Shown in pieces: positions 376-24,603 of a DNA stretch of 64,000 bases. Under the pieces are notes generated by a model that was given only the letters and a program-made list of their open reading frames with translations, was not told where the DNA came from and searched no databases. The position numbers were made by a program, and so were the translations under genes. The stretch covers positions 40,034-104,033 of the forward strand of contig JADGBR010000005.1 of NCBI GenBank assembly GCA_015231405.1, written 5' to 3'. This DNA comes from Candidatus Omnitrophota bacterium. Lineage in GTDB: Bacteria; Omnitrophota; Gorgyraeia; Tantalellales; Tantalellaceae. The stretch's first letter is position 1. Every line of letters begins with the position of its first letter.

Positions 376-3300
376 TTACACCGATCTCATAAACCGCAGG
401 AACTTTTCGAAACGGTCGGCTTTTCCTCCGCCGGGGGAACGTTCTATTTTGGGGAGAATGGTGAAAACCATGAAACCCAGCTCGGGGTCGTTCGATATGT
501 CGTCTATGCCAAGCTCTTCGAGGTTTATTCCCCTCTTTTCGAGCCCGGCCATGAAAGTATTGACATCTACGTTGAGGAGTTCCTTATTGAGCGATAGTGC
601 CACTATTTCAGCCAGGGGATAATAATATCCGGGATAGAACGCCTTCTCTTTTTCGTTCTGGCGGATCATGACCGGTCTCACGTCGGCTCCCATCCCTCTA
701 TATGAAGAGGCATTCGAAGCGTCACCGGTATAGACAAAAATATAGTTACCCTCCATATCCTTTCCGGAAACACCGTTCTCGTCCAGTTTCACCTCTAGGT
801 CCGCTTTATCCGTAAAAAATGTTAAAACGATATTATCGAGAAACCGGCGCATGTTCTTCTTTTCAACGTCTCCTCCCTCAAGTTTTACCACTGAATCTTT
901 CCACTCGTTGACAATCTTCTCGAATCTCTCTTTATCAAATCCCTTTTCCGTGACGCCATCTTCGATGGCCACTATAAGCATTTTCTCCGAACCCACCCGG
1001 CGCGTGAACCTCATGAACGCGGACTGTAAGGACCAGGCCAGCTCCTCCTCCTTCCTGATATCGCCTACGCAATCGGCGACGAGGTCTTCTATCCCGGTTT
1101 TTTTTTCGGCGTTTTCCTTAGCCTCGGACACCGCCCGGTAAAGGGTTATTGCCGGTTGGCTCTCTTTGGCCATGCGCGGGGCTATGATAACCCCTTCCGG
1201 CATCTCGGCGCCTTCCTCATGGCCTGTATAAATTTTTATCAAGTCCACATCCCAGTCTATGCCGGCCGCACGGAGATCATCCCTTGTCAAAGCGAGCATG
1301 CTGCGGTCGTTTCCGGGATCCTTCGCCGTTCCGACCGAATCGGCGAGTATAACTACCCTTTTCAAACCGAACTGCTTTATCATACGCATGACGCTCGCGC
1401 CTTTTGTTATAGCTATGACGTCTACGCCTCCGGAGGAAGTCACGACTTCGACTGAAGAGGATATCTTCCCGGACCGTTTAAGTTCATCTATTACCACGCG
1501 TAGCCGCCGCGCCATATCGAACCTTTTGGGTTTCAGGTCGACCTCGTCTTCCAGATATATCGTAACCCCGCCTTTTTCAGCCTTTATCCTTATATGGTCG
1601 GCTCTTTTATTATCGATACTTTCTGCCATGATCGTCTCGAGTAAGGCTTTTTTAGCTGCTTTCCGGACTTCCTCTACGGCGCCGTCACCCCCGATCACGG
1701 ACCTGACAAAACCCTCAATATCCCCGGTACGGCCGTCTTTCCTTAAAAGCCGGCCATCCGCGCCTGTATTAGTAAGGATCCGGTACGGCGTATCCGCGCC
1801 GATGGCGGACGCCCTCTCTATCCCTCCCATCCTTATCATGAAATCATCCCAGGGAAGACCCGTAACCGTAAAATTCAATACTCCGTTCATCGACATCCCC
1901 GCCCGCGCCTGTATCGTATCGTCCGACGCCACCCGATCGTCCCTGTCCCTGTCGACGCCATCAAAATCTGAGAATACCCCGTCCACACCCGCCAACCTTA
2001 GCGCATCGCCAAGAACTTCTTCATATGCCACGGCACGGATCCCGACCCCTTCACTTACAAGGCCCATGACCGCCCCGGCTATCTCTTCAAGCGGCAGGTT
2101 CCGGGCTCCCGGAACCGCCTCGAGCACTTTAGAAGGCATCTTTCCGGCCCCGGCGAACGGCCCGTCGGGATCGACTTTCTGGGTAATTATCTCCGCTCCG
2201 GCGGAAGCCGCCTTTTCGGCTCCCAATACCCCGTCATAGCCTAAGCCTGAAGTCTGTATGATGATTACCTTATCTCTGAAAAGTTCCGCCGCGGAAGAAT
2301 ACAACACATCTATCGCTCCGGCTTCCTCAAACTGATGGCAATCCGTTTCATCCCTGAATACCCGCGCGACCGTCCAGCCTTCGCTATCCCTCAGAACATA
2401 AACGAACTTCGCAATAACGGCCATACCTTTTTCGAGGATAATATCCTTTGTCCGGCTGTCGCCGAAATATTCATTATCAGCCAGAACAATGTTCCGTCCC
2501 GACTCACGAATGAAACGTGCGAAGTCCCCCCCGGCCAATTTTGCAAAATGGTCCAGATGCTCCGCCGCCACGACCGGAGGATGATCCGCGGGAAGCCTTT
2601 TAATTATCTCCTCAAGTGCTTGGTAACCGTACCGCGACCCGCCTATCGCTATTATGTTCCCGATTTCTCCGGTCTTTACGGTCGCGCTTTCCTGTTCGGC
2701 CGCGTTCATGGCCGGCGCTTCTTTTCCCTTCTTCATGACAAAAACGGCGCTCCCTTTGGCGTGGATCTTGAACTCAAGTTTTCCATCACGGATATTGTGC
2801 GCCAGACCGCTCACCCGGTCGGTGATCGACGCCCCGGCGTATCCCTCTCCCGGAAGAAAAGAGATATCCTGGTCGACCTCGCTCGTATTGAAGAAGATAA
2901 AAGCGTTCTCCCCTTTATACCTCCTCAGCATGACCACGAGCCTCCTCTCGTCATCGGCGGAAACTATCTCGAAAGAGCCGTATTTCAGAGACGGGGTTTC
3001 GTTGCGGAGGCGGGCCATCTTCCTGTAGTGTTCGCGGAGTTCGATGTCGGGTTTACCGGCGGCCGTTTCTTCCCAGAGCATGGGCCTGCGGCAACCGGGA
3101 TCGTTATCTCCCGGAAGGCCTATCTCGTCGCCGTAGTAAATAACAGGCATACCGGGAGCGGTCAAAAGGTATGTGGCGAGCTGTTTTGAGACCTTTCTGG
3201 CCGCGTCGATCTCATCCGGGCCGGCCTCGAGCTTATAACTGCCGTCAAGGACCACTTGCCCGTTCTCGTATCCGGAATGATTACGGACCCTCGCGTAATC

Positions 3301-18300: not shown

Positions 18301-21300
18301 CGTGGCCGACAGGAACTCCGTCACCGCGTCAGACGTGCCGGCATACCCCAGCCCCACACCATCCTGCTCATCATCGCCGCTATTAAATACACCTATCAGT
18401 TTTCCTCGGACATACACGGGAACGCCGCATGAACCCCACCTGTTGCAGGCTGGGTTATAAATGATAATGGTTTCATGCCTATCCCCAACCCATCTGGTTA
18501 TTTCGGCTTCAGTGTCTACGGCCCTGATCGTCTTGGCCGCCCGGGCTATGTCCCTGGCTGCTTCTTCGTATTCGGCTAATACGACTACCGCGTCACCCCG
18601 TTCGGTCTCTCCTGGTTCGCTCGTATAAGGCAGCTCGTCAGTACCGGCTATCGGCAAAATGTCAAAATGCCTGATGGGGTTTTCCGGGTATAATTTTATC
18701 AAGCTTAGGTCTTTATTTTTACTATGAACATATTTTACGATCTCACCGCAGATCTCTCTGCCATGGAATGAAGCTTTGACCTTCTGCCCGACCTTGGCGC
18801 CGTGGCCTACGGAAAGGACATAGACCTCCTGCCTGTGCTCTATTTCGACGGTAGCTAGTATGGTCCCCTGATACACCTCGGGTGACTCAAGCTCATGATC
18901 CTCAAGCGTTATTAACCTCTCCAGCATTTCGTCGCGCGTGATACCGCCCTCGAACGTTTCTGACGTCTCTTCAGCCTCTTCCGGGTCAGCCGTTTTTTCC
19001 AAAGCCTCGAGTATCCCCTCCATGAACCCCAGGATCTCGAGATCCCGGTTGATCCTGTCTCTTTCATCCATCATGTTCCATGGGACCTTCTTCATGTTCT
19101 CAAGCACCCAGCGAACACCCGATAGAGACTCGATCCCTTCCAAAAGATACGACGAATACGGCAGGATATCACCCATATAGTTCTGATGGCCCGAATGGAA
19201 TCCCAGACTCCACCGGCTGGCATAGCCAAGATCCTTATACCCATTCAGAAAGCCTTTGATCCCGAGTTTCGGCTGGGTGATGGTCTTCAGTGTCACACCC
19301 CATTCCATGAACTGCCACCAGAACTGGTCCTCCTTCCTGTCCAGAACTTCGAGTATATGCCCGGCCTCGTGCATCCAGTCTTTTTTCTCCTCTAGAAGTC
19401 TACGGGCTTTTCTCTTCCCGTCCGCGTAGGCTGAAAAATTCTGCGGCGGGTCCTCGTCCATATTGAGTAGGACAAACTCGCCCGAATCCATGCTGTGGCT
19501 TATGAACTTGTCGGTTCCTACCCTGCCGAATTTCTTCGTGAAGTAATTCCAGGAGTCCCCATGGAGCGGGGTTATCTTTATGGAATCGCCTTCCCTGTAA
19601 GGCCGCGAGTTCCCTATAGTATTGTGGTTTGAAAAATTATAACTATTCCAGAGGTCACGCGGCATCGCTATCCCTATACCGCCCTCCGCCAGGGCGTATT
19701 TATGCATTTCTTTGAGAAAATTCAAGATGAGTTCTTCGCCGTCAAATACTGGCGACTCTATGGTGTCTACCGTCAGCACTTTTTCACCTTTATCGTTCTT
19801 TCCCCACACGAGCCCTATCCATCCCACAAGCTGGCCCTTACGGTAGACAAAATATCCCAGGGCGTCTTCCTGGTAAGCACGCATAAAACCAAGGCCCTTA
19901 TCCATATCGAAAGAACAGTCATCTATGCCTGCCCGGCCCTGGAACGTTCCGAGGAACCCGACCGGGATGAGATCGAAAGTGTGCTTCACGACGGTATCGA
20001 CGAATTTCGCTTTTTCATATTCTTTGTAGAACACTTCCGAAAGGGCGAGCAGTTCAGCTTTTACCTCGGCGCCTCCGCCAAGCCCATTTCCTAGTGTTTC
20101 CAACGCATCCCGGGCATTATCCTCATAAAGGACTTTCAGATACTGCATTTTTTCGGATATATCCTCTCCCTGGCCCCGGGTTATCATGTCAAGAATTCCT
20201 GGCCTTTCCAGTACCGCCGCGATCACTACATCCCGCATAACAACTAGGCATTTATCTTTAAGCGCCGGGTCCACGATACGCCTCGCCGCAAGCTCGTACG
20301 CAGCGCGGTAGACGAATTCCTTGTTCGCCATTAGCTCTTCACGCATATCTTCCTCTGAACGGCTTTTCATCGCTTCCGTAACATATGCCCTTTTGCCATC
20401 ACCCTGTATTTTCCCAGCCTCCTCATACTTGAACAGGTAGTACAGATTCCTCACGGATAGTCTTTTATGCCCGGGGAAATATTCCGAGAGTATGGACAGG
20501 TCATCCACTTTCCTTTTTAAGTCCATGAGCCGAGAGACATGCGTCTCTATGGTCCGGGAAGAAACTTCGCTAGTGTTCAGCTCCCTGACGCCGGACGCGC
20601 CGACTTCGAGCGGCTTAAGCTTATTGCGTTTATTGAATATGTCTTTAAAATTCGAGCCATCAGGCGCGCCGTACGTGATATCCCTTACCGGAGCCATATG
20701 CGTGTCGTATTCGCCCTTCGTCATCGACACCCCGGCCAGCTTCGCCCCGAGATAAGCGTAAAAATTATCGCTGTCGTTCTTAATATCAAAACCGTCGTTC
20801 ATTGCCTTCCACGCTTTTGCTTCAAGGCCGCGAAGATATTCGTCCGCGGACGCATATTCGAGACATTTCTCCATTAATATCCTGTCATCCATGGGTAACC
20901 CGTGTTTAATGAAGAATTTTACGACCTTCGCCCCGGCATCGCCGAAACTGAAACCCTCCGCCCCTATGACGCGAGCCATAAGCCGGCCGTTCCCCCTATA
21001 GCTGAAGTCCTTTTCGTATTCATATTCCGGAGCGAGGAGGTGCAGGGGGCGCTTACCCTTTTCAAGGAGGTCAGCGCAGAGTTCCGAAAGCGAGTCATAG
21101 AAATCGCCCCTATTCGGATGCTCGCCGCGCATATTCTCGAGCGCCTTGTAAAACGACCCGACCCGCTCTGGGAGGCCTTGCTCGATAAGCGCCTTGTTCA
21201 TGGAAAATAGCCCGCTTATCCAGGCAGACTCTTTTAACCTGATCTTGTAATTCTCGGCCATCCACCCCCGATATTTGGCATCCTCCGTCTCGAGGTTTTT

Positions 21301-23106
21301 TTCGAACCATGAAAAGTATTCCGCGCTTTCGGCTTTGCCGGTCACCCTTATCTTTTCGGCCTGGCACCTTGCGAGTTCCAGAACGGCTGTGATCATTATT
21401 TCGGGGTTTTCGTGCAGGGAGAGCCCTTTCAATTCTTCGTCGTAGACCGTCCTTTCCCCGGCCCTTATATGCGCCCTGTCTATCATCCCGGCCGCCTTTA
21501 TTGCCCAATTGGCTATGTGGACGACCCGAGACGTCATGTATGCTGCCAGTTTTATATAGATCTCGTCCTTGTTCCTGCCGTTCTGTATTAGCGCCGAGTT
21601 TACCGCGGCGAACATGATAAAAAGCTTTTCGAGGTGCGCGAGCGAGTCGTCATCGGCTTTTTCCACATGTTTACGTACCATTTCAGCGAAACGCGGCCCG
21701 ATATTCCTTGAATATACCGGTTCACCTCCTTTATTGACGCTCTCGATATCCATTTTCATCATAGCCGGTATTACCTCGGCCATCTCGTCGGGCCTCATCA
21801 TTTGAAGATCTTCGCTCGCAGCAAGAAGCCTGGCCTCGATCTTTTTGGGAGCAAGCTCAGCCAGCGCCTTCAGGACTTCGGACGCGGGAGCTTTCGGATG
21901 ATCGGCAAGAGTTACGAGCGCTTCTATAAAACGCGCCTTACCAGCGGTCTTTTTATCCTTCGCTTTCAATATAGCTTTGACGGCGCTTTCATTAAGTTCG
22001 TTCCCTCGCCGATGCTCGGGGTTATCACTTATCTCCGCGTTGACGCTTGCGAGTAAAATATCCGGGAGCATCAGTTTCTCCGATACCTCATTAATTATCC
22101 CGATAGCCTCGACTGCAAGTTCCCTTACCCAAGCTCCGTCACCGCCACGGCCTTCGCCCCCCGCATAAGCCCATTTATAAAGATCAAGAGACAACGGCTC
22201 ACGGCCGTTCTCTATCAGCTTCGCGTCTATTTCGGCGAGCACCTTGAATATTTCGTTGAAACAATAATACCCCTCGAAGAATTTGTCCGGATTATACAGA
22301 TCCCTGATATATTCCCCGACCATCTTCTGCATTTCTATAACGCCAACCGGATCGCGTTCCGTCTCGATCAAGGCATAGTTTATTTTTTTAAGTGTCTCAA
22401 TGGCCATCGATCTCACCGTATCAACGTCCGTTAGCTTTTCCACAAAAATATCGAGAGACACATCCTCTTTTTTTCTTATGAGCGCCGCTACCATAAGGCC
22501 GAGGTCCCTTACTCCGTTAAAACGCACATCGCTGGAAGGATCGTAAAGATTAAGCCATTTTTTGTATAAAGTCTCTCTAACTCCAGAAATGAGACGGGGC
22601 ATAGCACCGTTATCCGCTTCAAGAGGCTCGGACAGTGATACTGCATCACCCGATACGGGCGCTCCGACACTTTTCCCTTTGGGCCGTATGGTAATATTTT
22701 CGCCGTTAGGGCTAATGACCACCTCGTGCCACCTGAGCGGATCTCTATGTTCAACGTCCAGTTTTGAGTAGATCGCAATGGGTATTACGAGGGAATCATC
22801 AGTGTCATATCTCTTTGCATCCCAATGAAAACCAACCACTTCGGATCTATTTGGAGCGATCTCAGGGTCGAACCCTTTCCGCCCTGCGAGCCCTTCCAAT
22901 TTCCTGCCATCCATGAATTCAAGTATCTTACCGACGACGAAAACATAGCTTTCCTCGCTGGGATCGTCGAAATTAGTCCAAACGGCAAGGGAATTTACCT
23001 CATTCCTATTTTTCAACACCCCCGGATCCGCCCAAACAATATCCTCAGCCACGAAAGTGACGAGTACTATTGAGGATATGATCTTAACTATAAGTTTTTT
23101 CATCAT
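376..23106 (-). CDS. giant (7576 aa) secreted/multi-pass membrane multidomain protein (mosaic of hydrolase, protease and phosphatase domains)
   Basis: Uninterrupted 22.7-kb ORF; N-terminal signal peptide MMKKLIVKIISSIVLVTFVAEDIVWA; multiple recognisable enzyme motifs (see domain features); many plus-strand ORFs inside are antisense artefacts. Confidence 0.85.
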   Translation of the reverse strand: MMKKLIVKIISSIVLVTFVAEDIVWADPGVLKNRNEVNSLAVWTNFDDPSEESYVFVVGKILEFMDGRKLEGLAGRKGFDPEIAPNRSEVVGFHWDAKRYDTDDSLVIPIAIYSKLDVEHRDPLRWHEVVISPNGENITIRPKGKSVGAPVSGDAVSLSEPLEADNGAMPRLISGVRETLYKKWLNLYDPSSDVRFNGVRDLGLMVAALIRKKEDVSLDIFVEKLTDVDTVRSMAIETLKKINYALIETERDPVGVIEMQKMVGEYIRDLYNPDKFFEGYYCFNEIFKVLAEIDAKLIENGREPLSLDLYKWAYAGGEGRGGDGAWVRELAVEAIGIINEVSEKLMLPDILLASVNAEISDNPEHRRGNELNESAVKAILKAKDKKTAGKARFIEALVTLADHPKAPASEVLKALAELAPKKIEARLLAASEDLQMMRPDEMAEVIPAMMKMDIESVNKGGEPVYSRNIGPRFAEMVRKHVEKADDDSLAHLEKLFIMFAAVNSALIQNGRNKDEIYIKLAAYMTSRVVHIANWAIKAAGMIDRAHIRAGERTVYDEELKGLSLHENPEIMITAVLELARCQAEKIRVTGKAESAEYFSWFEKNLETEDAKYRGWMAENYKIRLKESAWISGLFSMNKALIEQGLPERVGSFYKALENMRGEHPNRGDFYDSLSELCADLLEKGKRPLHLLAPEYEYEKDFSYRGNGRLMARVIGAEGFSFGDAGAKVVKFFIKHGLPMDDRILMEKCLEYASADEYLRGLEAKAWKAMNDGFDIKNDSDNFYAYLGAKLAGVSMTKGEYDTHMAPVRDITYGAPDGSNFKDIFNKRNKLKPLEVGASGVRELNTSEVSSRTIETHVSRLMDLKRKVDDLSILSEYFPGHKRLSVRNLYYLFKYEEAGKIQGDGKRAYVTEAMKSRSEEDMREELMANKEFVYRAAYELAARRIVDPALKDKCLVVMRDVVIAAVLERPGILDMITRGQGEDISEKMQYLKVLYEDNARDALETLGNGLGGGAEVKAELLALSEVFYKEYEKAKFVDTVVKHTFDLIPVGFLGTFQGRAGIDDCSFDMDKGLGFMRAYQEDALGYFVYRKGQLVGWIGLVWGKNDKGEKVLTVDTIESPVFDGEELILNFLKEMHKYALAEGGIGIAMPRDLWNSYNFSNHNTIGNSRPYREGDSIKITPLHGDSWNYFTKKFGRVGTDKFISHSMDSGEFVLLNMDEDPPQNFSAYADGKRKARRLLEEKKDWMHEAGHILEVLDRKEDQFWWQFMEWGVTLKTITQPKLGIKGFLNGYKDLGYASRWSLGFHSGHQNYMGDILPYSSYLLEGIESLSGVRWVLENMKKVPWNMMDERDRINRDLEILGFMEGILEALEKTADPEEAEETSETFEGGITRDEMLERLITLEDHELESPEVYQGTILATVEIEHRQEVYVLSVGHGAKVGQKVKASFHGREICGEIVKYVHSKNKDLSLIKLYPENPIRHFDILPIAGTDELPYTSEPGETERGDAVVVLAEYEEAARDIARAAKTIRAVDTEAEITRWVGDRHETIIIYNPACNRWGSCGVPVYVRGKLIGVFNSGDDEQDGVGLGYAGTSDAVTEFLSATEYAEVDTSLAGEAQKERDLAKFRECAHLVTFRDLMREGRDGRCEEPMYSDDQVERVKAILGKNNIKESDAYRSVLSAPGIDHRVKLELHDILIDEYIAGFYAAGAEAAGKRHFRYDDRETLSKIKDFFTDVLGRADIWGILLGYIEEGKVNVLEADHGLPPLFDAHASATYGINISASCRDDRRGAAIVHEAMSLAGSTDDAFNLRVEAAYAAGHTEGNAEIMGIKNELSEKGLTSGEGYAPGNATRDTRRERMAARYEELLKPYDDVKAEARRRRYPGEKEMYAPEVETGANAAEKYLKGLLRGGSEKRFIVVTSPLVRAQMEKWVFPGKDELLSRAMDVEDVNFRHIDKERFGEGSYFDKAEEIAKGSYPGTEGSGHNYPELVVGIGLGSVTDWAKLIGKKFSADVVIIPSALSTNAPFTGNAIIRDEDRDGGNYTLYSAATYAPRKVVVDPDFISLNPRGNTAGAGGLMSGWVALNDWRLALSEGEREDEAVRRKTEELLRDLVKSAPAIRSGGKEGLKAITYLNARSAALITEFGSERPRTGSEHILAETLEKLTRGRKILHGEMIGITTLIMSYIYTRMRSDVIQPEDLFAIARNAGVETDLGKIGLTREDLITALEGTRPKKGWYSFFDLTKVERKTAEEIVNKLFPDMSEGEKEVEGYLAPGHSITPDEFENALLVIFGVEEDQITRGTARYLEEEYPYTMFQSENNNKGPVYFRAGEIFAVNYGLKPWDENEKAMGKGSGGKMPGMRRKELLDRLLARYPYAIRMFEEATKYGEGGWWPYTYHPRTPEGYYYLAGAVGQLIALQANREIIRGRTYIDALSRNGIMANAALLLGAKDVVVIENDRQDIDTKNVSSPADSTVLPATMDLIGLNLALNGNGNKARVYYASVRHITEETFNEAVLSYSLRHFAMGYYDASTTEIVEAMRSDPKFFFGDWVPESERGKGLLASKRESLIKDIREKFSGIRWIIASGGSEPDSLGDIGETRKLIHDAFTLGMKAEGMVDIRHGWGYSYAKHGWEHINIYPTLVFRVADTDKLVDRPEADVEWLAHSKSEREAFFSKDQDVLLGRIRLRGMLGGLLRKVHKDDIDIEELSSALNSGSEWVFSEVLEELSEALYAPETLYPLPPYDELNYEANYNLATVLANTFPGHVVALARADVKDLGGNRHGRYMVKIDDDICIDLVYGEIEPEYKDRVLVISKKDLGPERDRIVAVFKPGNVENTVASSRSPVIGPTLIMLGIIVLSSAISAFCMVVPGGPAVICSAMANYLPQVSIALIAGAVLWIQRGGKTSEAPRPKRKNVDPGVIDAERVLDECEKIAPVFFEAFRKIYPADPGSCEGGAYTMAHVLAGRLGLAMDGVSPNRVEMEMVLRPGTGELPESRKKGTGHVVTVVWLGGKKAVFIDMTHGQFDPKYFNKMVSGRYDDSMKYLGLMNIAEGDDHFKNTAPAAGHTGDRAARDIAFARKTGVGGYMGYSGLPEQNWGIFTSDRRKRNCAVCETTEEKTKSLPGRILSAIEKTAPIPGEARNARGPVIGPMMIGMVFMVWLKKLADRSARAKHKKNRHGYGMSLRGFFINAVVTAVELGSFVLAVIQLKKWLASEKREKPPVIRTGGSFRRGGVTRLDLLNGIVLTVILTVALSLSYNYSPELFEKAAIGIGFILTAFPAAGLIMRMRDDPDSAVRVLRKLKPAAIPALALLMVPNTYLLVMGIGAIGFLMAWVIMSSYLGKNSLAGYIPGKIKRSSAIPFFHKVYGIEHQDGPLPTGGGYILDQLDTGVSIPGANAAMTGKASGQTGWDSEKLPGSVKYDGKQKVMTEISWMWYPEDRGENGPGYVVQLMLADSLDADHIPGTPLRYDIELAPYLFHGEFTRPVNAGSIELSFDELGRVLFGGTGWSASLLDGIEKAYPWLLSLLSEGCKAMAAKPVMPPVVIDPAVIDREVEAYVNGITGDGKMPTAEEFELALNLIFGLKNWETERGSVLYNGERYAFTRCSGTTRAEGPVYFRAGDMFVLNAAARSGSREPLVDLLLSKYRNVVKLYEEIAPEGHYGWFPYKAGKYISGRSYYLDSTIGQLIAMQAERKNIEGHTFIDAFSRNAVIGNAAFLLGASDVVCIENDPQAVDTRELGTRRSDKDFPQKTDLVTANLIINGNLERSRIYNTTIRNVPEREYKNAILAFSFEKFGYGYLETSYSEYLAAEKEQPERLRKYGDWLDETPRGKAIMATKRESLIGDIRRTFPGVNVIIASGGVEARKIDNYGITNKIIREAASLGMKLRELLEMNIDDEIWDDGSLIERKQQLVMPTLVFRPMTFNEKWAYSLETAKREWRDLLAIIGFLPKHKNTAWKDSKWGYLRDRVTRPLALIGVWAAMGLTVSAGIYVSSFGFILGYWAGLAIVMGGTYASVRFARYYVNTRGHAIYDTLAALMPGLFSPLMMEDETGAAADPRVPVEELISRIKRAFDAGEDWRRKAEAIELTLKRLAGDGEGQGQAAREWDKKHREFVRLTRALSPILNGDIKGSGRVIYVDDFSEWRYVMAGFNGGEGAVFLGCSFSPVQMMAMLSMLESRTKGIEGDGHYLTLKDKLIIAAVMGYPMAAFVYRPVDNGHIVYHEAIEAAITARGERMDVTEGYTSESVSVAEISRIVNGSDDAREETKELKESFIAYMSALRAYPGDNLNSEFFSWLAAVARYPDAEEHIKAYKPTSDAEAKFLAEREKNDIGRRMDEATRRFVAAVVKYPELRELIRDYYAKLINDVPEMADLLAVPAIFGRVVASEIKMEDVLCMAMMELLRRKYDAYTETTIKAVMEKYDGNTAAETIYSFLSFIWGVKSEKLIDLGHSDGVEYTHINVEDASAAMELIGEKFRDELREIVIRAADYIDTESLGTHLDRILLVVLEFAVSLSNGAPEALLSKLEDSSVAFSPSLFGKEWRGVIWKKAYRDALTGYGWNSYAVMKEFMRGDTQYELFIGKTIGDVVDDLASSNDDARSFAALEALEQKFMDLAETRQMRGIGELPESTYSLESMLIPAETSMKLAGALKKCILSEAHPFVSRTAMRLYYSIEEIQMPDKDKMFMALCRRVLPGIKDAPGRCRAARNIAEGCPGHYALYDDFINVLLGVVSRGRKIERGLNELAQNLRGRGARLLPAEKALAEFVITGVDLADLDGKASDENVTARELIALVVEAHKNGHDWRTAALRIEDELKRLAGTTPSAGGRKKRITEKYRDFAKLARDAIPILSGDKTPGSGGMAEGGGTDILTVQRFIGEGDMVSLAAQITRGMQGLPDAAARIEIDAIVRKLSRDLGEKLRAELIPYGGTPGSHEGRLALLALERLDHVVYIGDNSALDLSMKVKGGAVREPVKGGAYDKDIIRAKLAEISASSGLNITKDISSKDEAMEAVFGDDGTIYDFLKTATLCRNACPYDLTRYDTRPPLQFALEEGLYIRIGKDLFMTPVSESFRRHIVFTRNGDGTIGSAFEALIPGDNPARLDTACDKRSGIIDRIRGIYPLRGYIVPWKQKIYLTPGTYELYGVPLEFPESEIKNRGLVLYDYEEDGKRLSNVTPEAIAAIAARFGVTVRRVEEEIFSQLAEITAAIHNIKLLAHWVDKDGATQNEYGLHNFRLIVTERGIRLTLPGDVTSFQALGLIRSLASGEARFTDVKQLIPSDKRTVPPLARFIRALLPGEQQGIFLERYKEFNRTAELIREVSSIRSPWVFRDILTTKEIVILSADEKVTVFRYPLDGRGGYAVGIRNMSDSTIEGITPVELHTMGIDPGKEFELFDRSSYDVIKFMPGINVFSKGDALGRPEGSIYYKLAPREVHVFEIWPERGVLTEPAKTGTVSAGSPALKVEDVRVKVLGAGSNPGLSMPSDIPMDINAVHKVLAEGDNARKIAELARSLRLVCPHYPPIGDERTPLEYALNEGLVVKLGGTDYIKLGLSPLGARGDEFIFYAREMDGRLKFACNIRIPEGDVTKDRIGISEIDIKNDPVTGAYAGEGLYEPADRAQALKDRLARIMGSGKTPVISADIDDTLLKFGADMNDEVLGAVERYVEKGGVLVFNTKGDNEWFYKRFYEIMRGYFAERGKLHLLSNIPVILCGGKQAFIYDVLSDSYKVVFESWGLQKSEGLLRLIDHLGRDKHELLALYGDQLWEYWNDGNAVGTEGIDIIVNVGENRYHGIPGWQNFFNTNFAGPQATLGDIEMFTEQLEGHGVPVLPIDTKDLPGFKRFVFRKGTGYGSRWNWRSGREGASYQDSWPDHEGIDFYEYQNEAGETNPVKVGTSVRAVLPGRVFIGQKSAGTSFNSVVIDHGKGKVSLYRHVYSKLNSGEEVKQGDIIGEIASEACPHLHFEILEGIDLSSSAIWEWAQKNFDKTRTETEGLLAGGFDINEIIRFEYYERYREDLSINPFTVFSQLKEVASVADDDTITQAPSPKLHLSVVALAKADAPCLAGRQACPPEDTEYYDPFTDGHQIWAYEGIPAGIAVSGPNPEKLPKGFVWSGTLLPDEKSWANVHYTAIRELPDGRWGAPLSEGATIFRIFWTGGDDASGGKTAGHYEPGEPFRVKYIKADIHYYLNKLRGVQPPKPVPSELAARPAVIDARVALAAPEPALESSPFGEFAGEVGYQIMVDRFKKSLGNNKPRDKIPAGHGRIYSIGPVSWDKPWYELTDFEKKWAESHGQHPDSILWTREYGGDLQGVIDELDYLKDMGIGFIYFNPVFWADTHHKYNAKTLHHIDPWFGPDPEGDMRLIETEDPLDPNKWVWTSADKLFMRLISEAHEKGIKVVLDGVFNHTGNQFFALQDIIEKTKRGEPSPFFDWYKWWRNDDGSFGWEGWWGDVDALPELRRDNEGNYPRGYVEYVNNILKRWMIPGTVDGKAARGIDGWRLDVECQLHPKFRKQLYGMMKAIDPEAIVISEPDWGNTYEQMNEGTSDSTMNYPFLWASARLFIDGLKPSTFVRAIEGLAGLYPARLRDTIFNSLGTHDTERIATARLEPNPPKERVDHMAYGDYARVRNHSGYENGQVVLDGSYKLEAGPDEIDAARKVSKQLATYLLTAPGMPVIYYGDEIGLPGDNDPGCRRPMLWEETAAGKPDIELREHYRKMARLRNETPSLKYGSFEIVSADDERRLVVMLRRYKGENAFIFFNTSEVDQDISFLPGEGYAGASITDRVSGLAHNIRDGKLEFKIHAKGSAVFVMKKGKEAPAMNAAEQESATVKTGEIGNIIAIGGSRYGYQALEEIIKRLPADHPPVVAAEHLDHFAKLAGGDFARFIRESGRNIVLADNEYFGDSRTKDIILEKGMAVIAKFVYVLRDSEGWTVARVFRDETDCHQFEEAGAIDVLYSSAAELFRDKVIIIQTSGLGYDGVLGAEKAASAGAEIITQKVDPDGPFAGAGKMPSKVLEAVPGARNLPLEEIAGAVMGLVSEGVGIRAVAYEEVLGDALRLAGVDGVFSDFDGVDRDRDDRVASDDTIQARAGMSMNGVLNFTVTGLPWDDFMIRMGGIERASAIGADTPYRILTNTGADGRLLRKDGRTGDIEGFVRSVIGGDGAVEEVRKAAKKALLETIMAESIDNKRADHIRIKAEKGGVTIYLEDEVDLKPKRFDMARRLRVVIDELKRSGKISSSVEVVTSSGGVDVIAITKGASVMRMIKQFGLKRVVILADSVGTAKDPGNDRSMLALTRDDLRAAGIDWDVDLIKIYTGHEEGAEMPEGVIIAPRMAKESQPAITLYRAVSEAKENAEKKTGIEDLVADCVGDIRKEEELAWSLQSAFMRFTRRVGSEKMLIVAIEDGVTEKGFDKERFEKIVNEWKDSVVKLEGGDVEKKNMRRFLDNIVLTFFTDKADLEVKLDENGVSGKDMEGNYIFVYTGDASNASSYRGMGADVRPVMIRQNEKEKAFYPGYYYPLAEIVALSLNKELLNVDVNTFMAGLEKRGINLEELGIDDISNDPELGFMVFTILPKIERSPGGGKADRFEKFLRFMRSV
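1250..2000 (-). other. domain of the giant protein: HAD-IIB (Cof / sugar-phosphate phosphatase-like) hydrolase
   Basis: GVDGVFSDFDGV (DxDGT-type motif I) ... ADSVGTAKDPGNDRSM (GDxxND motif IV-like). Confidence 0.45.
2740..4480 (-). other. domain of the giant protein: GH13 alpha-amylase-family glycoside hydrolase
   Basis: All four GH13 conserved regions are present: VVLDGVFNHTG (I, DNA 3950-3975), GWRLDVECQ (II), VISEPDWG (III), FNSLGTHDTERI (IV), followed by a MPVIYYGDEIG C-terminal region. Confidence 0.75.
5240..5700 (-). other. domain of the giant protein: M23/LytM-family metallopeptidase
   Basis: DHEGIDFYEY (HxGxD) ... VVIDHGKGKVSLYRHV ... GEIASEACPHLHFEI (HxH); DNA 5258-5330 decodes to GEEVKQGDIIGEIASEACP. 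Confidence 0.65.
5800..6270 (-). other. domain of the giant protein: HAD-like hydrolase
   Basis: GSGKTPVISADIDDTLLKFG corresponds to HAD motif I DxDxT; GSGK is encoded at about 6262. Confidence 0.4.
11080..14600 (-). other. region of the giant protein holding at least 8 predicted transmembrane helices (two clusters)
   Basis: Hydrophobic 20-25-aa stretches such as LIMLGIIVLSSAISAFCMVV, VIGPMMIGMVFMVWL, FINAVVTAVELGSFVLAVI, LLNGIVLTVILTVALSLSY, AAIGIGFILTAFPAAGLIM, ALALLMVPNTYLLVMGIGAIGFLMAWVIM, LALIGVWAAMGLTVSAGIYVSSFGFILGYWAGLAIVM. Confidence 0.55.
14030..14290 (-). other. domain of the giant protein: transglutaminase-like (TGc) cysteine-protease core
   Basis: PGSCEGGAYTMAHVLAGRLGLAMDG ... 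GHVVTVVWLGGKKAVFIDMTHGQFD matches the TGc pattern C..(about 50 aa)..HxWxEVxL..GWxxxDPT. Confidence 0.4.
16240..17400 (-). other. domain of the giant protein: DHQS-like / glycerol-dehydrogenase-like (iron-ADH fold)
   Basis: RFIVVTSPLV...GIGLGSVTDWAKLIG...VVIIPSALSTNAPFTGNAI...HGEMIGITT resembles GldA/DHQS motifs GGGxxxDxAK, PTIASTDAPxS and HGExVA. Confidence 0.45.
18300..18820 (-). other. domain of the giant protein: chymotrypsin-fold protease-like region with Cys at the nucleophile position (3C-like GxCG)
   Basis: GHGAKVG...HGREICGEI (His), KDLSLIKL (like trypsin NDIALLKL, Asp), WGSCGVPVYV (GxCG instead of GDSGGP); the Cys codon tgc lies at about 18427-18429. Confidence 0.3.
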
Positions 23107-23386: not shown

Positions 23387-23587
23387 TTGACCGGTTGTAA
23401 GGACTGTAATCAATATGAAAAAGAGCTGAAGGAGTTAAAAGACCGGTATGCATTAATGGAGTATGAGCTAAAAAGCCTTAAATCAGAATTTTTCAAAAGG
23501 TCCCGCAAGAAAAAAGAGATTGATAAAGATCAGCCAAAGCCCCCGCCCAAAAAGTCCGGGAACGACGAAAAAAGATTAATCGAATAG
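23387..23587 (+). CDS. IS66-family transposase, N-terminal coiled-coil/basic fragment (frame-split)
   Basis: YEKELKELKDRYALMEYELKSLKSEFFKRSRKKKE...PPKKSGNDEKR resembles the leucine-zipper plus basic region of IS66 TnpC. Confidence 0.5.
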   Translation: MTGCKDCNQYEKELKELKDRYALMEYELKSLKSEFFKRSRKKKEIDKDQPKPPPKKSGNDEKRLIE

Positions 23588-23592
23588 TCGAA

Positions 23593-24603
23593 GTGCGTCC
23601 TTCAAAATGTCCCTACTGTGGAGGTACGGATATTACTGAACGCCAAGACACTAAAGATCATTATCAAAAAGACATTATTTTGCCTGAAGCGCAAGCCACC
23701 TTGTTCCGGAAACACAGATATTACTGCAATAGCTGCAGAAAGACGGTTATGGGAAAAGATGCCGATGAAATACCCAAAAGCAAAATAGGTCCGGTAGCCA
23801 AATCGTGGGCGACATTCCTAAAATACGGGATCAAGATATCGGATAGGGACGTCGCGAATATCCTTAAGATGCTAAGTTTAAAGGTAGTTCCCTCGTCGAT
23901 AGTCGGGTTCAGAGCTCAACTGAAGAAAGAGGCTTTGCCGATATACGAATTGTTAATAGCCTCATTGAAACGCGGCAAATTCATACATTTCGATGAAACC
24001 GGCGCAAAGATAAATGGAGAGGATGCGTGGTGTTGGAAGGCATCGAACAAGACGGTATGTATAACGCATACTGACCGGAGCCGAGGGCAAAGAGTCGTGG
24101 AAGAGATCCTTGGTCCGGAGTATGATGGCGTGCTGATAAGCGACTTTTTATCGGCGTATAACAAGATCAAAACGAAGGCCAAGCAGAAGTGTCTTGTACA
24201 TATTCTCAGGGATCTCAAGAAAGTGCTTGAATACTGGCGGGAAGAGGACGATGAGGTCATTAGGTATTGCGGTAGATTGAAAAGCATATTTGAGAACGCT
24301 ATTAAGCTGTATAAGGAATATCTGGACAAGAAGTGGGATAGAAAGTATTACACCAGGCGCAGGCTGATAACCGAGAGTCTTAAAGATTTCGCGTTCCCGA
24401 ACCCGGATAAGAAAATATTAAATAGATTCGCTAAAAGACTGGAAAAACACAATGTTAAGAAACTGGTTTATTATGAAATAGCGGACAGCATCGAAGACGC
24501 GATTGAGAGAGAAAAACAGATCAAAGCCGGTTCCCGCAAGAAGAAGATAGCTCTTATTGAATCGATGAACCCTACCTATAAAGACCTGTATTTTGAAATT
24601 TAG
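23593..24603 (+). CDS. IS66-family transposase core (zinc finger + DDE) fused to a GIY-YIG-like (UPF0213-type) C-terminal tail
   Basis: CPYCGG...CNSC zinc finger; IHFDETGAKI, VLISDFLSAY and CLVHILRDLKKVLE resemble IS66 DDE motifs; the C-terminus RFAKRLEKHNVKKLVYYEIADSIEDAIEREKQIKAGSRKKKIALIES matches the conserved GIY-YIG tail ...RRLxEHN...LVYYEEF..xEAxxREKQIKxxSRxKKxxLI. Confidence 0.55.
   Translation: MRPSKCPYCGGTDITERQDTKDHYQKDIILPEAQATLFRKHRYYCNSCRKTVMGKDADEIPKSKIGPVAKSWATFLKYGIKISDRDVANILKMLSLKVVPSSIVGFRAQLKKEALPIYELLIASLKRGKFIHFDETGAKINGEDAWCWKASNKTVCITHTDRSRGQRVVEEILGPEYDGVLISDFLSAYNKIKTKAKQKCLVHILRDLKKVLEYWREEDDEVIRYCGRLKSIFENAIKLYKEYLDKKWDRKYYTRRRLITESLKDFAFPNPDKKILNRFAKRLEKHNVKKLVYYEIADSIEDAIEREKQIKAGSRKKKIALIESMNPTYKDLYFEI

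What the first reader, a model, noticed from the sequence alone, without database searches (positions are those of the whole stretch)
376..23106. A 7576-aa secreted and multi-pass membrane protein combining GH13 glycosidase, M23 peptidase, two HAD phosphatases, TGase-like and dehydrogenase-like domains
A single uninterrupted ORF encodes an N-terminal signal peptide and at least seven recognisable enzyme-like domains: DHQS/GldA-like, 3C-like protease-like, transglutaminase-like, HAD, M23 (HxGxD...HxH), a complete GH13 catalytic domain and HAD-IIB. It also has two clusters of transmembrane helices in the middle. Fusing a peptidoglycan hydrolase (M23) and a glycan hydrolase (GH13) with phosphatases and protease-like domains on one secreted, membrane-anchored polypeptide is not a known housekeeping architecture. 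It would fit a cell-envelope-attacking or host-interaction machine, or a surface organelle.
Basis: partly seen in the sequence, partly recalled or inferred. Interest (0 to 1): 0.8.

Follow-up and report, generated by a model that had tools for sequence, protein, structure and literature searches.

The report
Omnitrophota giant membrane-anchored multi-enzyme protein
The 22.7-kb gene is real and encodes a 7,576-residue membrane-anchored protein with several enzyme domains, but it is one more example of the "giant genes" already described in the host-dependent phylum Omnitrophota, not a new kind of machine.

Summary
The ORF at 376..23106 (minus strand, 7,576 aa, no stop) is real. Codon statistics are uniform along it and match the neighbouring housekeeping genes.

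Confirmed by profiles, with catalytic residues intact:
- a neopullulanase-type GH13;
- an M23 peptidase;

A glycerol-1-phosphate/glycerol dehydrogenase-like domain is present but has lost one of its three metal ligands. Two copies of a rare PrmA-like methyltransferase module, found here, have degenerate SAM and catalytic motifs.

There is a signal-peptide-like N-terminus and three transmembrane clusters, not two. The topology is unresolved.

DnaB places the window in Omnitrophota. A second giant ORF (more than 5,812 aa, NHL repeats) lies 23 kb away. Giant ORFs with signal peptide, transmembrane helices and many enzyme domains are already described for this phylum (Seymour 2023; West-Roberts 2023; Nielsen & Lui 2026). 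This is therefore a new, sequence-unique member of a known kind.

The function, probably envelope-associated processing of host polymers, remains inferred.

The parts
376..23106 (-). Giant ORF g1, 7,576 aa, ATG start
   Evidence: Codon statistics are uniform and native.
23026..23106 (-). aa 1-27: signal-peptide-like leader, MMKKLIVKIISSIVLVTFVAEDIVWA|DPG
   Evidence: Hydropathy peak of 2.19 at aa 5-21. The same leader pattern occurs in unrelated large proteins P0002, P0009, P0014, P0018 and the L082 ORF. Cleavage is inferred, not tested.
18907..23025 (-). aa 28-1400: region with no significant family match; a faint HEAT_2 hit at aa 187-244
   Evidence: Pfam HEAT_2 E 0.0037, below the cut-off. 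No relative found in the word-indexed search, which has low sensitivity for long queries.
18277..18879 (-). aa ~1410-1610: trypsin-fold (PA clan) protease-like segment with candidate triad H1435 / D1466 / S1559 (WGSCG)
   Evidence: 8 of 9 PDB hits are DegP, at E 0.67-1.9. They align GSCG with GNSGG. Not significant; this is a motif-level call.
16342..17409 (-). aa ~1900-2255: glycerol-1-phosphate / glycerol dehydrogenase-like (DHQS-like superfamily) domain. The Zn-ligand Asp is replaced by Gly (AGAGG, aa 2068-2072) and GGG has become GLG.
   Evidence: NF002022 at 6.6e-26 (91 bits against a cut-off of 413); Fe-ADH at 7e-7. The PDB alignment to 4rgq/5fb3 shows GMGD aligned to GAGG, with both His kept (SEH, LHGE).
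15190..16326 (-). aa 2261-2639: PrmA-like class I methyltransferase-fold module, copy A1. Motif I is DALSRNG and motif IV is SLRHFA, both degenerate.
14428..14580 (-). aa 2843-2893: transmembrane cluster 1, with one strong segment (2847-2863) and one weaker (2877-2893), preceded by PVIGP
   Evidence: Hydropathy 2.45 and 1.78. The C-flank carries 6 K/R.
13717..14409 (-). aa 2900-3130: transglutaminase/papain-like Cys-His-Asp motif region (GSC2946EGGAY..., GH2996VVTVVWLGGKKAVFID3012MT)
   Evidence: Motif only. There is no Pfam, NCBIfam or PDB hit. The single-sequence AlphaFold model was unusable, pLDDT 34.5.
13123..13695 (-). aa 3138-3328: transmembrane cluster 2 with 5-6 hydrophobic segments; the first is again preceded by PVIGP
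11374..12480 (-). aa 3543-3911: PrmA-like methyltransferase-fold module, copy A2. Motif I is DAFSRNA and motif IV is SFEKFG, both degenerate.
   Evidence: 33-41% identical to A1. Pfam Cons_hypoth95 at E 0.096.
11110..11214 (-). aa 3965-3999: transmembrane cluster 3, a hairpin with positively charged flanks
10753..11058 (-). aa 4017-4118: repeat module B, copy 1 (unknown fold)
   Evidence: 36% identical to aa 4740-4841, E 2e-12
8584..8889 (-). aa 4740-4841: repeat module B, copy 2
7864..8247 (-). aa 4954-5081: repeat module C, copy 1 (unknown fold)
   Evidence: 27% identical to aa 5428-5566, E 1e-8
6409..6825 (-). aa 5428-5566: repeat module C, copy 2
5707..6255 (-). aa ~5618-5800: HAD-like phosphatase candidate 1, with motif I D5625-I-D-D-T
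   Evidence: Four HAD-IIB NCBIfam models at E 0.06-0.24, Pfam Hydrolase_3 at E 0.3 and PDB ISN1 at E 0.6 all hit motif I. All are sub-threshold.
5257..5559 (-). aa ~5850-5950: M23 metallopeptidase with H5855xxxD5859, IDH5905G and H5942LH5944
   Evidence: Pfam PF01551 at 7e-13, 49 bits against a cut-off of 28.7. The closest relative is P0002, 35% identical.
2731..4458 (-). aa 6217-6792: GH13 neopullulanase / cyclomaltodextrinase-type catalytic domain plus C-domain, with D6482 (nucleophile), E6511 (acid/base) and D6578
   Evidence: Pfam 1.4e-31; NF041090 at 5.6e-61. The alignment to TVAII (1jf6) at 7.5e-58 shows regions I-IV conserved.
2071..2661 (-). aa 6816-7012: CheB-methylesterase-like domain with no receiver domain; S6824, H6850 and D6958 are present
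   Evidence: Pfam PF01339 at 3e-16. The PDB alignment to 3sft places Ser, His and Asp in register.
1117..1989 (-). aa ~7040-7330: HAD-IIB-like candidate 2 (D7047-F-D-G-V; TGL; ITKG; ADS...GNDRSML)
   Evidence: Motifs read by eye only. No profile or PDB support.
379..1116 (-). aa 7331-7576: C-terminal region with no family match

Best explanation
**What it is.** This is a genuine chromosomal gene of an uncultured Omnitrophota bacterium. It belongs to the 'giant ORF' proteins typical of that phylum, in their multi-enzyme form with a signal peptide and transmembrane helices. One 7,576-residue polypeptide is held in the cytoplasmic membrane by an N-terminal leader or anchor and three clusters of transmembrane helices, about ten helices in all. 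It strings together unrelated modules.

**Shown.**
- There are three hydrolase domains with intact catalytic residues: an M23 peptidoglycan-type metallopeptidase, a neopullulanase-like GH13 alpha-glucan hydrolase, and a CheB-like Ser-His-Asp esterase/deamidase.
- The cofactor-dependent folds have lost key residues: the G1PDH-like domain and two PrmA-like methyltransferase modules.
- The protein grew partly by internal duplication of three modules.
- Apart from common domains it shares only the rare methyltransferase-like module with other proteins. Several of those are also large and carry a similar leader.

**Inferred.**
- The protein works as a membrane-tethered array of hydrolases at the cell envelope. 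There it processes polymers obtained from a host or prey cell: peptide cross-links, alpha-glucans and phosphorylated sugars.
- The degenerate NAD(P)/SAM folds and the helical N-terminal region act as binding or scaffold modules.
- The pattern of intact cofactor-free hydrolases and degenerate cofactor-dependent folds is what an extracytoplasmic location would predict. The topology itself is not settled.
For: **Real gene**
- The ORF and its coding statistics are sound.

**Phylum and context**
- The best DnaB matches, 72-58% identical, are all Omnitrophota MAGs.
- The flanking genes are a diderm housekeeping block: LpxI, FabZ, LpxC, Skp, BamA, DnaB, SSB and others.
- A second giant ORF with NHL repeats lies in the same window.

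**Domains and residues**
- GH13; M23; CheB-like triad.
- The G1PDH-like domain has Asp replaced by Gly.

**Membrane segments and leader**
-.

**Relatives with the same building blocks**
- They also have leaders and are large: P0002, P0006, P0009, P0014, P0018 and the 3,706-aa HEAT-repeat ORF of L082.

**Literature**
- Giant ORFs over 20 kb are common in Omnitrophota, poorly conserved, rich in transmembrane helices, and proposed to act on host surfaces (PMC10066038).
- Archaeovorin-type proteins combine glycosyl hydrolases, peptidases, methyltransferases and HEAT repeats (10.1101/2023.11.21.568195).
- In the 'multi-enzyme' class, 39% have signal peptide plus transmembrane helices and 80% are sequence singletons (10.64898/2026.06.07.730766).
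Against: **Topology conflicts with an exported location.** A simple positive-inside count puts the flanks of transmembrane hairpins 1 and 3, and most loops of cluster 2, on the cytoplasmic side. That would leave M23 and GH13 inside the cell.

**The domains are mostly cytoplasmic types elsewhere.** Neopullulanase-type GH13 enzymes, CheB and HAD phosphatases are usually cytoplasmic (established knowledge).

**Missing features of the described classes.**
- There is no SecA_DEAD, glycosyltransferase or NUDIX domain, all typical of Archaeovorins.
- The protein is shorter than the length cut-offs used in the two catalogues (10 and 30 kaa).
- The type II secretion and sugar-import neighbours reported for some giant genes are absent here.

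**No direct evidence.** There is no expression, localisation or activity data.
Confidence: 0.6

Rival explanations
1. Cytoplasm-facing membrane-tethered enzyme array ('metabolon'). The N-terminal hydrophobic segment and the transmembrane hairpins only pin the protein to the inner face of the membrane. The GH13, HAD, CheB-like and methyltransferase-like modules then work on cytoplasmic alpha-glucan, sugar-phosphate and protein substrates.
For: The positive-inside rule favours a cytoplasmic location for aa 2895-3137, 3330-3960 and 4000-7576. The best GH13 matches are the neopullulanase, cyclomaltodextrinase and MalZ types, which are mostly intracellular. CheB, HAD, G1PDH and methyltransferase folds are normally cytoplasmic. 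Nielsen & Lui describe sugar-metabolism modules in such proteins, and both preprints doubt the predicted outside locations.
Against: The leader is signal-peptide-like, with an AXA-type site and the positive charge at the N-terminus. M23 peptidases act on peptidoglycan outside the cytoplasm, and the closest M23 relative, P0002, has a leader and no other transmembrane segment. The NAD(P)- and SAM-dependent folds are the degenerate ones, which is unexpected if cofactors were at hand.
Confidence: 0.22
2. Self-processing polyprotein. The giant precursor is inserted or exported and is then cut by its own trypsin-fold and transglutaminase/papain-like protease modules into separate enzymes.
For: Two protease-like motif sets are present: H1435/D1466/S1559 and C2946/H2996/D3012. 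West-Roberts et al. raise cleavage by built-in peptidases as a possibility. A relative, P0014, carries a recurring inter-module motif RAE[VA]R 16 times, which brackets its methyltransferase-like module exactly.
Against: Neither protease-like segment reaches significance in any profile or PDB search. g1 has no recurring junction motif: no 5-mer occurs three or more times. There is no proteomic evidence.
Confidence: 0.08
3. Largely non-catalytic surface coat or adhesin. The enzyme-like domains serve as ligand-binding modules for host glycans, peptidoglycan or lipids rather than as enzymes.
For: The G1PDH-like domain and both methyltransferase-like modules have lost key residues. Most of the sequence (aa 28-1400 and 4000-5600) has no enzyme signature and only a faint HEAT signal. 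The literature proposes adhesion or coat roles for these proteins.
Against: The catalytic residues of GH13, M23 and the CheB-like domain are all intact. That argues these three are maintained as enzymes.
Confidence: 0.08
4. Artefact: an operon collapsed into one ORF by sequencing or assembly error, or a chimeric join.
For: None positive. The window's reads are not available, and no orthologue was found to compare with.
Against: The probability of no stop in 7,576 codons is about 1e-167. The frame-specific GC pattern and codon usage are constant along the ORF and match the neighbouring genes. Sequencing errors usually break ORFs rather than fuse about ten genes in frame. Internal duplicates lie within the same frame. 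Giant ORFs are the norm in this phylum.
Confidence: 0.02

Closest known systems
Giant ORFs (>20 kb) of Omnitrophota, as surveyed by Seymour et al. 2023 (PMC10066038), including the 39,678-aa protein of Velamenicoccus archaeovorus LiM
   Same: Same phylum by DnaB. ORF of 22.7 kb, which is over 20 kb. Multiple transmembrane helices, few annotated domains, poor conservation. More than one giant ORF per genome region.
   Different: Much shorter than the V. archaeovorus protein. No adhesin-type domains (discoidin, laminin_G_3, dockerin) were detected.
Archaeovorin-type giant proteins (West-Roberts et al. 2023, bioRxiv 10.1101/2023.11.21.568195)
   Same: A mix of glycosyl hydrolase, peptidase and methyltransferase-like domains with transmembrane helices, an N-terminal signal-peptide-like region and a largely unannotated N-terminal part. 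Murein-degrading capacity via M23 here and via SLT in that study.
   Different: 7.6 kaa against more than 30 kaa. No SecA_DEAD, glycosyltransferase (GT5/GT1), NUDIX or C39/S8 peptidase domain was found, and HEAT is only faint. No type II secretion or sugar-import genes nearby.
Class 1 'multi-enzyme metabolic cluster' long proteins of Gorgyraeia (Nielsen & Lui 2026, bioRxiv 10.64898/2026.06.07.730766)
   Same: Many distinct domains with none dominating. Signal peptide plus transmembrane topology class. Internal domain repeats with no nucleotide-level tandem signal. Sequence singleton. HAD and methyltransferase content. An NHL-repeat scaffold (class 2) is encoded nearby.
   Different: Below that catalogue's 10-kaa threshold. 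Lacks the starch-synthase, GT1, PGM and histidine-kinase modules that define their two large co-occurrence modules.
Neopullulanase / TVAII / cyclomaltodextrinase group of GH13
   Same: Conserved regions I-IV and the Asp/Glu/Asp triad align residue for residue with TVAII, E 7.5e-58.
   Different: About 30% identity. It is embedded in a giant membrane protein. All NCBIfam equivalog cut-offs are missed, for example 207 bits against 540. Substrate is unknown.
PrmA (ribosomal protein L11 methyltransferase) and related class I amino-methyltransferases
   Different: The family motif I is G-S-R-N-G instead of GxGxG. In g1 even the first Gly is lost, and motif IV (N/D-x-P-x-F/Y-G in most members) is lost too. 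The family is very rare, with 23 representatives in 1.84 billion, and often sits inside large leader-bearing proteins.

Membership tests
Omnitrophota giant ORFs (Seymour et al. 2023 definition) | Encoded in an Omnitrophota genome | tested here: met
   The top nine DnaB matches (72-58% identity) are Omnitrophota MAGs or SAGs; one is mislabelled Planctomycetia. Other phyla reach 57% at most. This rests on a single marker gene; there is no phylogenomic tree.
Omnitrophota giant ORFs (Seymour et al. 2023 definition) | ORF longer than 20 kb | tested here: met
   22,731 nt including the stop
Omnitrophota giant ORFs (Seymour et al. 2023 definition) | Multiple predicted transmembrane helices | tested here: met
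   About ten hydrophobic segments in three clusters plus an N-terminal leader. This is hydropathy only; DeepTMHMM was not available.
Archaeovorin-type giant proteins (West-Roberts et al. 2023) | Length above 30,000 aa (gene above 90 kb) | tested here: not met
   7,576 aa
Archaeovorin-type giant proteins (West-Roberts et al. 2023) | Divergent SecA DEAD / preprotein-binding domain (present in most) | tested here: not met
   No SecA family hit in Pfam or NCBIfam at E<=0.01 over the whole protein. A very divergent copy cannot be excluded.
Archaeovorin-type giant proteins (West-Roberts et al. 2023) | Domain set: glycosyltransferases, methyltransferases, glycosyl hydrolases, peptidases, NUDIX, HEAT | tested here: inconclusive
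   GH13, M23 and two methyltransferase-like modules are present. No GT or NUDIX domain. HEAT_2 only at E 0.0037.
Class 1 multi-enzyme long proteins (Nielsen & Lui 2026) | At least 10,000 aa (catalogue threshold) | tested here: not met
   7,576 aa
Class 1 multi-enzyme long proteins (Nielsen & Lui 2026) | Many distinct domain families tile the protein with none dominating; signal peptide plus transmembrane helices | tested here: met
   Five significant, distinct families (G1PDH/Fe-ADH-like, PrmA-like x2, M23, GH13, CheB-like) plus motif-level ones, with a leader and transmembrane clusters.
Glycoside hydrolase family 13 | Conserved regions I-IV with the catalytic Asp (II), Glu (III) and Asp (IV) | tested here: met
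   DGVFNH (6382-6387), GWRLD6482V, SE6511PDW and GTHD6578T align with D325/E354/D421 of TVAII.
Peptidase family M23 | HxxxD and HxH zinc/catalytic motifs; profile above the gathering score | tested here: met
   H5855EGID5859 and H5942LH5944, with 49 bits against a cut-off of 28.7.
CheB protein-glutamate methylesterase/deamidase | Catalytic Ser-His-Asp triad in the C-terminal domain | tested here: met
   S6824 (GGSRYG), H6850 (AEHLD) and D6958 (GLGYDG) align with T. maritima CheB 3sft. Pfam 3e-16.
CheB protein-glutamate methylesterase/deamidase | N-terminal response-regulator receiver domain and a chemotaxis gene context | tested here: not met
   There is no Response_reg hit next to the domain and no che genes in the window. 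It is therefore CheB-like in fold, not a CheB.
Glycerol-1-phosphate dehydrogenase / glycerol dehydrogenase (DHQS-like, Fe-ADH clan) | Metal ligands Asp-His-His and the Gly-rich NAD(P) loop; score above the equivalog cut-off | tested here: not met
   The Asp of GMGD is Gly here, GGG has become GLG, and both His are kept. It scores 91 bits against a cut-off of 413. It is a superfamily member and probably not an active G1PDH.
HAD superfamily phosphatases (two candidates) | Motif I DxDx(T/V) plus motifs II-IV; a significant profile match | tested here: inconclusive
   Motif I is present in both (DIDDT at 5625, DFDGV at 7047), and motifs II-IV are readable by eye. Candidate 1 gets only sub-threshold HAD-IIB hits (E 0.06-0.3). 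Candidate 2 gets none.
Transglutaminase-like / papain-like cysteine peptidase fold | Cys-His-Asp triad in a recognisable core; a profile or structure match | tested here: inconclusive
   The C2946/H2996/D3012 spacing fits the core motif as I recall it. There is no profile or PDB hit, and the AlphaFold model had pLDDT 34.5.
PA-clan (trypsin / 3C-like) peptidases | His-Asp-Ser/Cys triad in order on a double beta-barrel; a significant match | tested here: inconclusive
   H1435, D1466 and S1559 occur in order. DegP hits are at E 0.67-1.9 only, and the Ser rather than the neighbouring Cys aligns with the nucleophile. No structure was obtained.
Class I SAM-dependent methyltransferases (PrmA-like) | Rossmann-like methyltransferase fold | tested here: met
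Class I SAM-dependent methyltransferases (PrmA-like) | Gly-rich SAM loop (motif I) and catalytic motif IV | tested here: not met
   g1 copies have DALSRNG / DAFSRNA and SLRHFA / SFEKFG. Most family members have DxGSRNG and N(F/L)PxFG.

The most novel reading that the evidence does not exclude
The protein is an exported, membrane-stitched polyprotein. Its own trypsin-fold and transglutaminase/papain-like modules would cut it into a set of hydrolases (M23, GH13, a CheB-like esterase/deamidase, HAD phosphatases) released at the interface with a host cell. The dead G1PDH-like and PrmA-like folds would have been repurposed as ligand-binding modules, for example for glycerol-phosphate head groups or protein termini of the host. 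This would be a bacterial counterpart of viral polyproteins. Together with the RAE[VA]R 'punctuation' seen in a relative, it would point to a general processing logic for Omnitrophota giant proteins.
Probability: 0.08. Interest if true: 0.75.

Novelty: new member of a known kind. Interest (0 to 1): 0.4.

Why it matters
If the reading is right, this is a compact and tractable example of the Omnitrophota giant multi-enzyme proteins: 7.6 kaa rather than 40-150 kaa. Those proteins still have no experimentally shown function, export route or topology.

Its three clearly intact hydrolase domains (M23, GH13, CheB-like) could each be expressed and assayed on their own. Its roughly ten transmembrane segments are few enough for reporter-fusion mapping.

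Intact cofactor-free hydrolases sit beside degenerate NAD(P)/SAM folds. That contrast is a testable clue to which side of the membrane these proteins work on.

The rare PrmA-like module and the shared leader give handles for finding related proteins in metagenomes.

The finding does not change what is known about the phylum. It adds one well-dissected member.

Tried and rejected
**Searches for orthologues**
- Word-indexed searches with aa 1-1900 and aa 2255-3960 found nothing.
- The same tool found only 2 proteins with aa 5600-7576, even though the GH13 domain has PDB hits at E about 1e-53 to 1e-58. Its negative results therefore exclude only close relatives.
- An exact-protein lookup of BamA and DnaB found nothing, so this genome is not in that collection.
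- A scan of GTDB genomes with aa 1900-3950 found no relative. A scan of JGI metagenomes with aa 4000-5600 found none either.

**Synteny**
- The closest relatives, L001 and L002, share DnaB-BamA-Skp-LpxC-FabZ but have no giant gene after that block.
- tblastn of both giant proteins against all 80 loci gave nothing.

**Structure and fold searches**
- Single-sequence AlphaFold of the transglutaminase-like region failed (pLDDT 34.5), so it was not used for a fold search.
- The afdb50 fold library was unavailable.

**Other checks**
It was repeated with 5 sequences.
- The two giant proteins share no similarity with each other.
- I considered and rejected the collapsed-operon or assembly-artefact reading on the coding statistics.
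- I considered filing the protein as an Archaeovorin. I did not, because the length criterion fails, no SecA_DEAD domain was found, and the domain-set test was only partly satisfied.
- I considered a phage or mobile-element origin. Codon usage is native and the flanks are housekeeping genes. Only an IS66-family transposase ORF lies upstream.

Full report

The window holds one uninterrupted ORF at 376..23106 on the minus strand, 7,576 codons with an ATG start. At the ORF's own base composition a stop is expected in 4.9% of codons. The chance of none in 7,576 codons is about 1e-167.

The GC content of codon positions 1, 2 and 3 keeps the same coding pattern in every 500-codon block. Synonymous codon usage correlates r=0.91 with ten housekeeping genes of the window, and 0.83-0.91 for each third of the ORF. 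A wrong-frame control gives 0.32.

The gene is therefore real, native to this genome and read in one frame throughout. A collapsed operon or chimeric join is very unlikely. Only the original reads could exclude it formally.

**2. Where does it come from?**

The genes between 24.7 and 46.3 kb all lie on the same strand. They form a housekeeping block of a diderm bacterium: LpxI, FabZ, LpxC, Skp, BamA, DnaB, SSB, Pth, L25, Prs, GlmU, tRNA-Gln, SpoVG, IspE, a split transketolase, FtsH, a TPR protein and HisG.

The best matches to the window's DnaB among 185,579 species-representative genomes are Omnitrophota MAGs or SAGs, at 72, 70, 67, 63, 62, 60, 60, 58 and 60% identity. Other phyla follow at 57% or less. 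No species- or genus-level relative is in that collection. The exact BamA and DnaB proteins are not on record either.

A second giant ORF lies at 46508..63946, also on the minus strand. It encodes 5,812 aa of NHL/beta-propeller repeats and has no stop upstream up to the window edge, so it is longer still. An IS66-family transposase ORF lies immediately upstream of the giant gene, in a low-GC stretch.

The two closest relatives, L001 and L002, keep the order DnaB-BamA-Skp-LpxC-FabZ but have ordinary genes where the giant gene sits here. Neither giant protein matches anything in the 80 fetched loci.

**3. Anatomy (protein coordinates)**

*Leader.* The N-terminus, MMKKLIVKIISSIVLVTFVAEDIVWA|DPG, looks like a Sec signal peptide or signal anchor.

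*N-terminal region.* Residues 28-1400 have no significant family match, only a faint HEAT signal at E 0.0037.

*Protease-like segment.* Residues ~1410-1610 carry His1435, Asp1466 and Ser1559 in the order and local context of trypsin-fold proteases. Eight of nine weak PDB hits are DegP (E 0.67-1.9). They align WGSCGVP with GNSGGAL, so the Ser rather than the Cys lines up with the nucleophile. This is a motif-level call.

*Dehydrogenase-like domain.* Residues ~1900-2255 match the glycerol-1-phosphate/glycerol dehydrogenase branch of the DHQS-like superfamily: NF002022 at 6.6e-26 and PDB 4rgq at 1.3e-13. The alignment shows the zinc-binding Asp of GMGD replaced by Gly. The GGG loop has become GLG. 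The two His ligands are kept.

*Methyltransferase-like modules.* Residues 2261-2639 and 3543-3911 are two copies, 33-41% identical, of one module.
- A profile of the two copies finds only 23 proteins among 1.84 billion cluster representatives. They range from 346 to 5,747 aa, so the module occurs both alone and embedded in large proteins.
- A 20-sequence alignment gave a confident model (pLDDT 87.2, pTM 0.91).
- The alignment profile also hits PRMT1/PrmA at motif I (E 1.5e-4). Ten of the 20 members hit Pfam PrmA.
- The family motif I is D-x-G-S-R-N-G. Most members carry an N/D-(F/L)-P-x-(F/Y)-G motif IV.
- The two copies in this protein read DALSRNG / DAFSRNA and SLRHFA / SFEKFG, so both motifs are degenerate.

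*Transmembrane clusters.* Hydrophobic segments form three clusters: 2847-2863 and 2877-2893; five or six segments between 3138 and 3328; and a hairpin at 3965-3999.

Cys2946, His2996 and Asp3012 have the spacing and neighbours of the transglutaminase core as I recall it. No profile or PDB search supports this, and the single-sequence AlphaFold model was unusable (pLDDT 34.5).

*Further duplications.* Residues 4017-4118 repeat at 4740-4841. Residues 4954-5081 repeat at 5428-5566.

*C-terminal third.* In order:
- A HAD-like segment with DIDDT at 5625. Four HAD-IIB NCBIfam models, Pfam Hydrolase_3 and the HAD enzyme ISN1 all hit motif I, all sub-threshold at E 0.06-0.6.
- An M23 peptidase, above Pfam's gathering score, with HxxxD and HxH present.
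- A GH13 domain of the neopullulanase/TVAII/cyclomaltodextrinase type. It scores E 7.5e-58 to TVAII, and regions I-IV and the Asp6482/Glu6511/Asp6578 triad align exactly.
- A CheB-methylesterase-like domain without a receiver domain. Pfam gives 3e-16, and Ser6824, His6850 and Asp6958 align with the T. maritima CheB triad.
- A second HAD-IIB-like segment, readable only by eye: DFDGV, TGL, ITKG, ADS...GNDRSML.
- 246 unannotated residues at the end.

**4. Relatives**

BLAST of the giant protein against all proteins retrieved shows that only the methyltransferase-like module is shared with the module-A family. Only the M23 region is shared with P0002, at 35% identity.

Several of these relatives are themselves large and begin with a leader of the same pattern: a Lys, about 13 hydrophobic residues, a polar or acidic pair, then x-x-A-A/G-P. 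They are P0002 (3,002 aa), P0009 (4,712 aa), P0014 (5,528 aa), P0018 (2,238 aa) and the 3,706-aa HEAT-repeat ORF of metagenome contig L082.

No orthologue of the whole protein was found in GTDB genomes or JGI metagenomes. The word-indexed protein search is insensitive for long queries, as one search shows. 'No homologue' therefore means no close homologue.

**5. Topology**

The leader predicts that residue 28 onward starts outside the cytoplasm.

Against this, the flanks of hairpins 1 and 3 and most loops of cluster 2 are rich in Lys and Arg. They fit best if the large soluble regions after residue 2895, and especially 3330-7576, are cytoplasmic. The two readings are compatible only if cluster 1 contributes an odd number of helices.

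Other evidence also points both ways:
- For an outside location: M23 enzymes act on peptidoglycan; P0002 has a leader and no other transmembrane segment; and it is the NAD(P)- and SAM-dependent folds that have decayed, while the cofactor-free hydrolases are intact.
- For an inside location: the usual cytoplasmic habitat of neopullulanase-type GH13, CheB and many HAD enzymes (established knowledge).

Both preprints on these proteins state that predicted locations are unreliable. I leave the topology open.

**6. What it most likely is and does**

*Identity (confidence about 0.85).* It is a member of the Omnitrophota giant-ORF proteins, in their multi-enzyme, signal-peptide-plus-transmembrane form.

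*Mechanism (inferred, confidence about 0.4).* It is a membrane-tethered array of hydrolases working at the cell envelope on polymers taken from a host or prey. M23 would cut peptide cross-links, GH13 would cut alpha-glucans, and the HAD-like and CheB-like modules would remove phosphate and ester/amide groups. The dead dehydrogenase and methyltransferase folds and the helical N-terminal region would act as binding or scaffold parts.

*Rivals.*
- A cytoplasm-facing metabolon: 0.22.
- A self-processing polyprotein: 0.08.
- A mostly non-catalytic coat or adhesin: 0.08.
- An artefact: 0.02.

**7. Comparison with what is known**

Seymour et al. (PMC10066038) report ORFs over 20 kb in most classes of Omnitrophota. 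They describe many transmembrane helices, few annotated domains and poor conservation, and link these ORFs to a host-dependent lifestyle.

West-Roberts et al. define Archaeovorins by length over 30 kaa, many transmembrane helices, usually a SecA_DEAD domain, and a set of GT, GH, peptidase, methyltransferase, NUDIX and HEAT domains.

Nielsen & Lui describe a class of 'multi-enzyme metabolic cluster' proteins. In their catalogue 39% have signal peptide plus transmembrane helices, 65% carry repeated domains and 80% are sequence singletons.

The present protein meets the Seymour definition. It resembles the other two classes in construction but fails their length thresholds. It also lacks SecA_DEAD, GT and NUDIX domains. 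I therefore file it as a new member of the known kind, Omnitrophota giant multi-enzyme membrane proteins, and not as an Archaeovorin in the strict sense.

**8. Verdict**

Four other domain calls remain unproven. One domain, two rare modules and a transmembrane cluster were missed. The claim of an unknown architecture does not hold once the phylum is identified.

Interest is moderate (0.4). The gene is a compact, experimentally approachable representative of a poorly understood class, but a specialist would not be surprised by it.

Noticed in passing
window 46508-64000 (minus strand): A second giant ORF of at least 5,812 aa, made of NHL/beta-propeller repeats. There is no stop between its first ATG and the window edge, so the window truncates it. 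It has no sequence similarity to the first giant protein and no strong hydrophobic segment in the part seen.
   Followed up: partly
L083 1097-17683 (protein P0014, 5,528 aa; contig Ga0080064_1000002): The short motif RAE[VA]R occurs 16 times, spaced about 100-550 residues apart. It brackets this protein's methyltransferase-like module exactly (aa 2962 and 3306). It looks like 'punctuation' between modules and could mark processing sites. P0002 similarly has G-x-R-L-A seven times. The giant protein of this window has no such recurring motif.
   Followed up: partly
window 23026-23106; N-termini of P0002, P0009, P0014, P0018 and L082 584-700: Otherwise unrelated large proteins share one leader pattern: a Lys, about 13 hydrophobic residues, a polar or acidic pair, then x-x-A-A/G-P. 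This suggests a lineage-typical signal peptide for these large proteins.
   Followed up: partly
window 23387-24603 (plus strand): An IS66-family transposase ORF (336 aa; DDE_Tnp_IS66 at 5.7e-20) preceded by a 66-aa ORF sits directly upstream of the giant gene, in the only low-GC stretch of the window (0.44). It lies where the closest relatives have ordinary genes. The last ~50 residues of the transposase ORF resemble a GIY-YIG-type tail; that is from memory and untested.
   Followed up: no
window 11374-12480 and 15190-16326; alignment A2: The PrmA-like module is a very rare family, with 23 representatives in 1.84 billion. It has an invariant S-R-N in place of the usual Gly-rich SAM loop and a conserved N-terminal YFRAG beta-hairpin. 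It occurs both as ~350-500-aa stand-alone proteins and inside proteins of 1,400-5,700 aa.
   Followed up: yes
window 39952-40968 (minus strand): A 338-aa ORF between the transketolase C-terminal subunit and the FtsH-like gene has no Pfam match at E<=0.001.
   Followed up: no
window 37121-37825 (minus strand): The SpoVG homologue is 234 aa, and its Pfam match is stretched over residues 1-120 by an inserted zinc-ribbon-like segment (DZR / Zn_Ribbon_1 hits at aa 57-79). This is unusual for SpoVG.
   Followed up: no
window 14566-14580 and 13681-13695 (aa 2838-2842 and 3139-3143): The pentapeptide PVIGP directly precedes the first helix of both transmembrane cluster 1 and cluster 2. This hints that the membrane anchors were duplicated along with neighbouring modules.
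   Followed up: no
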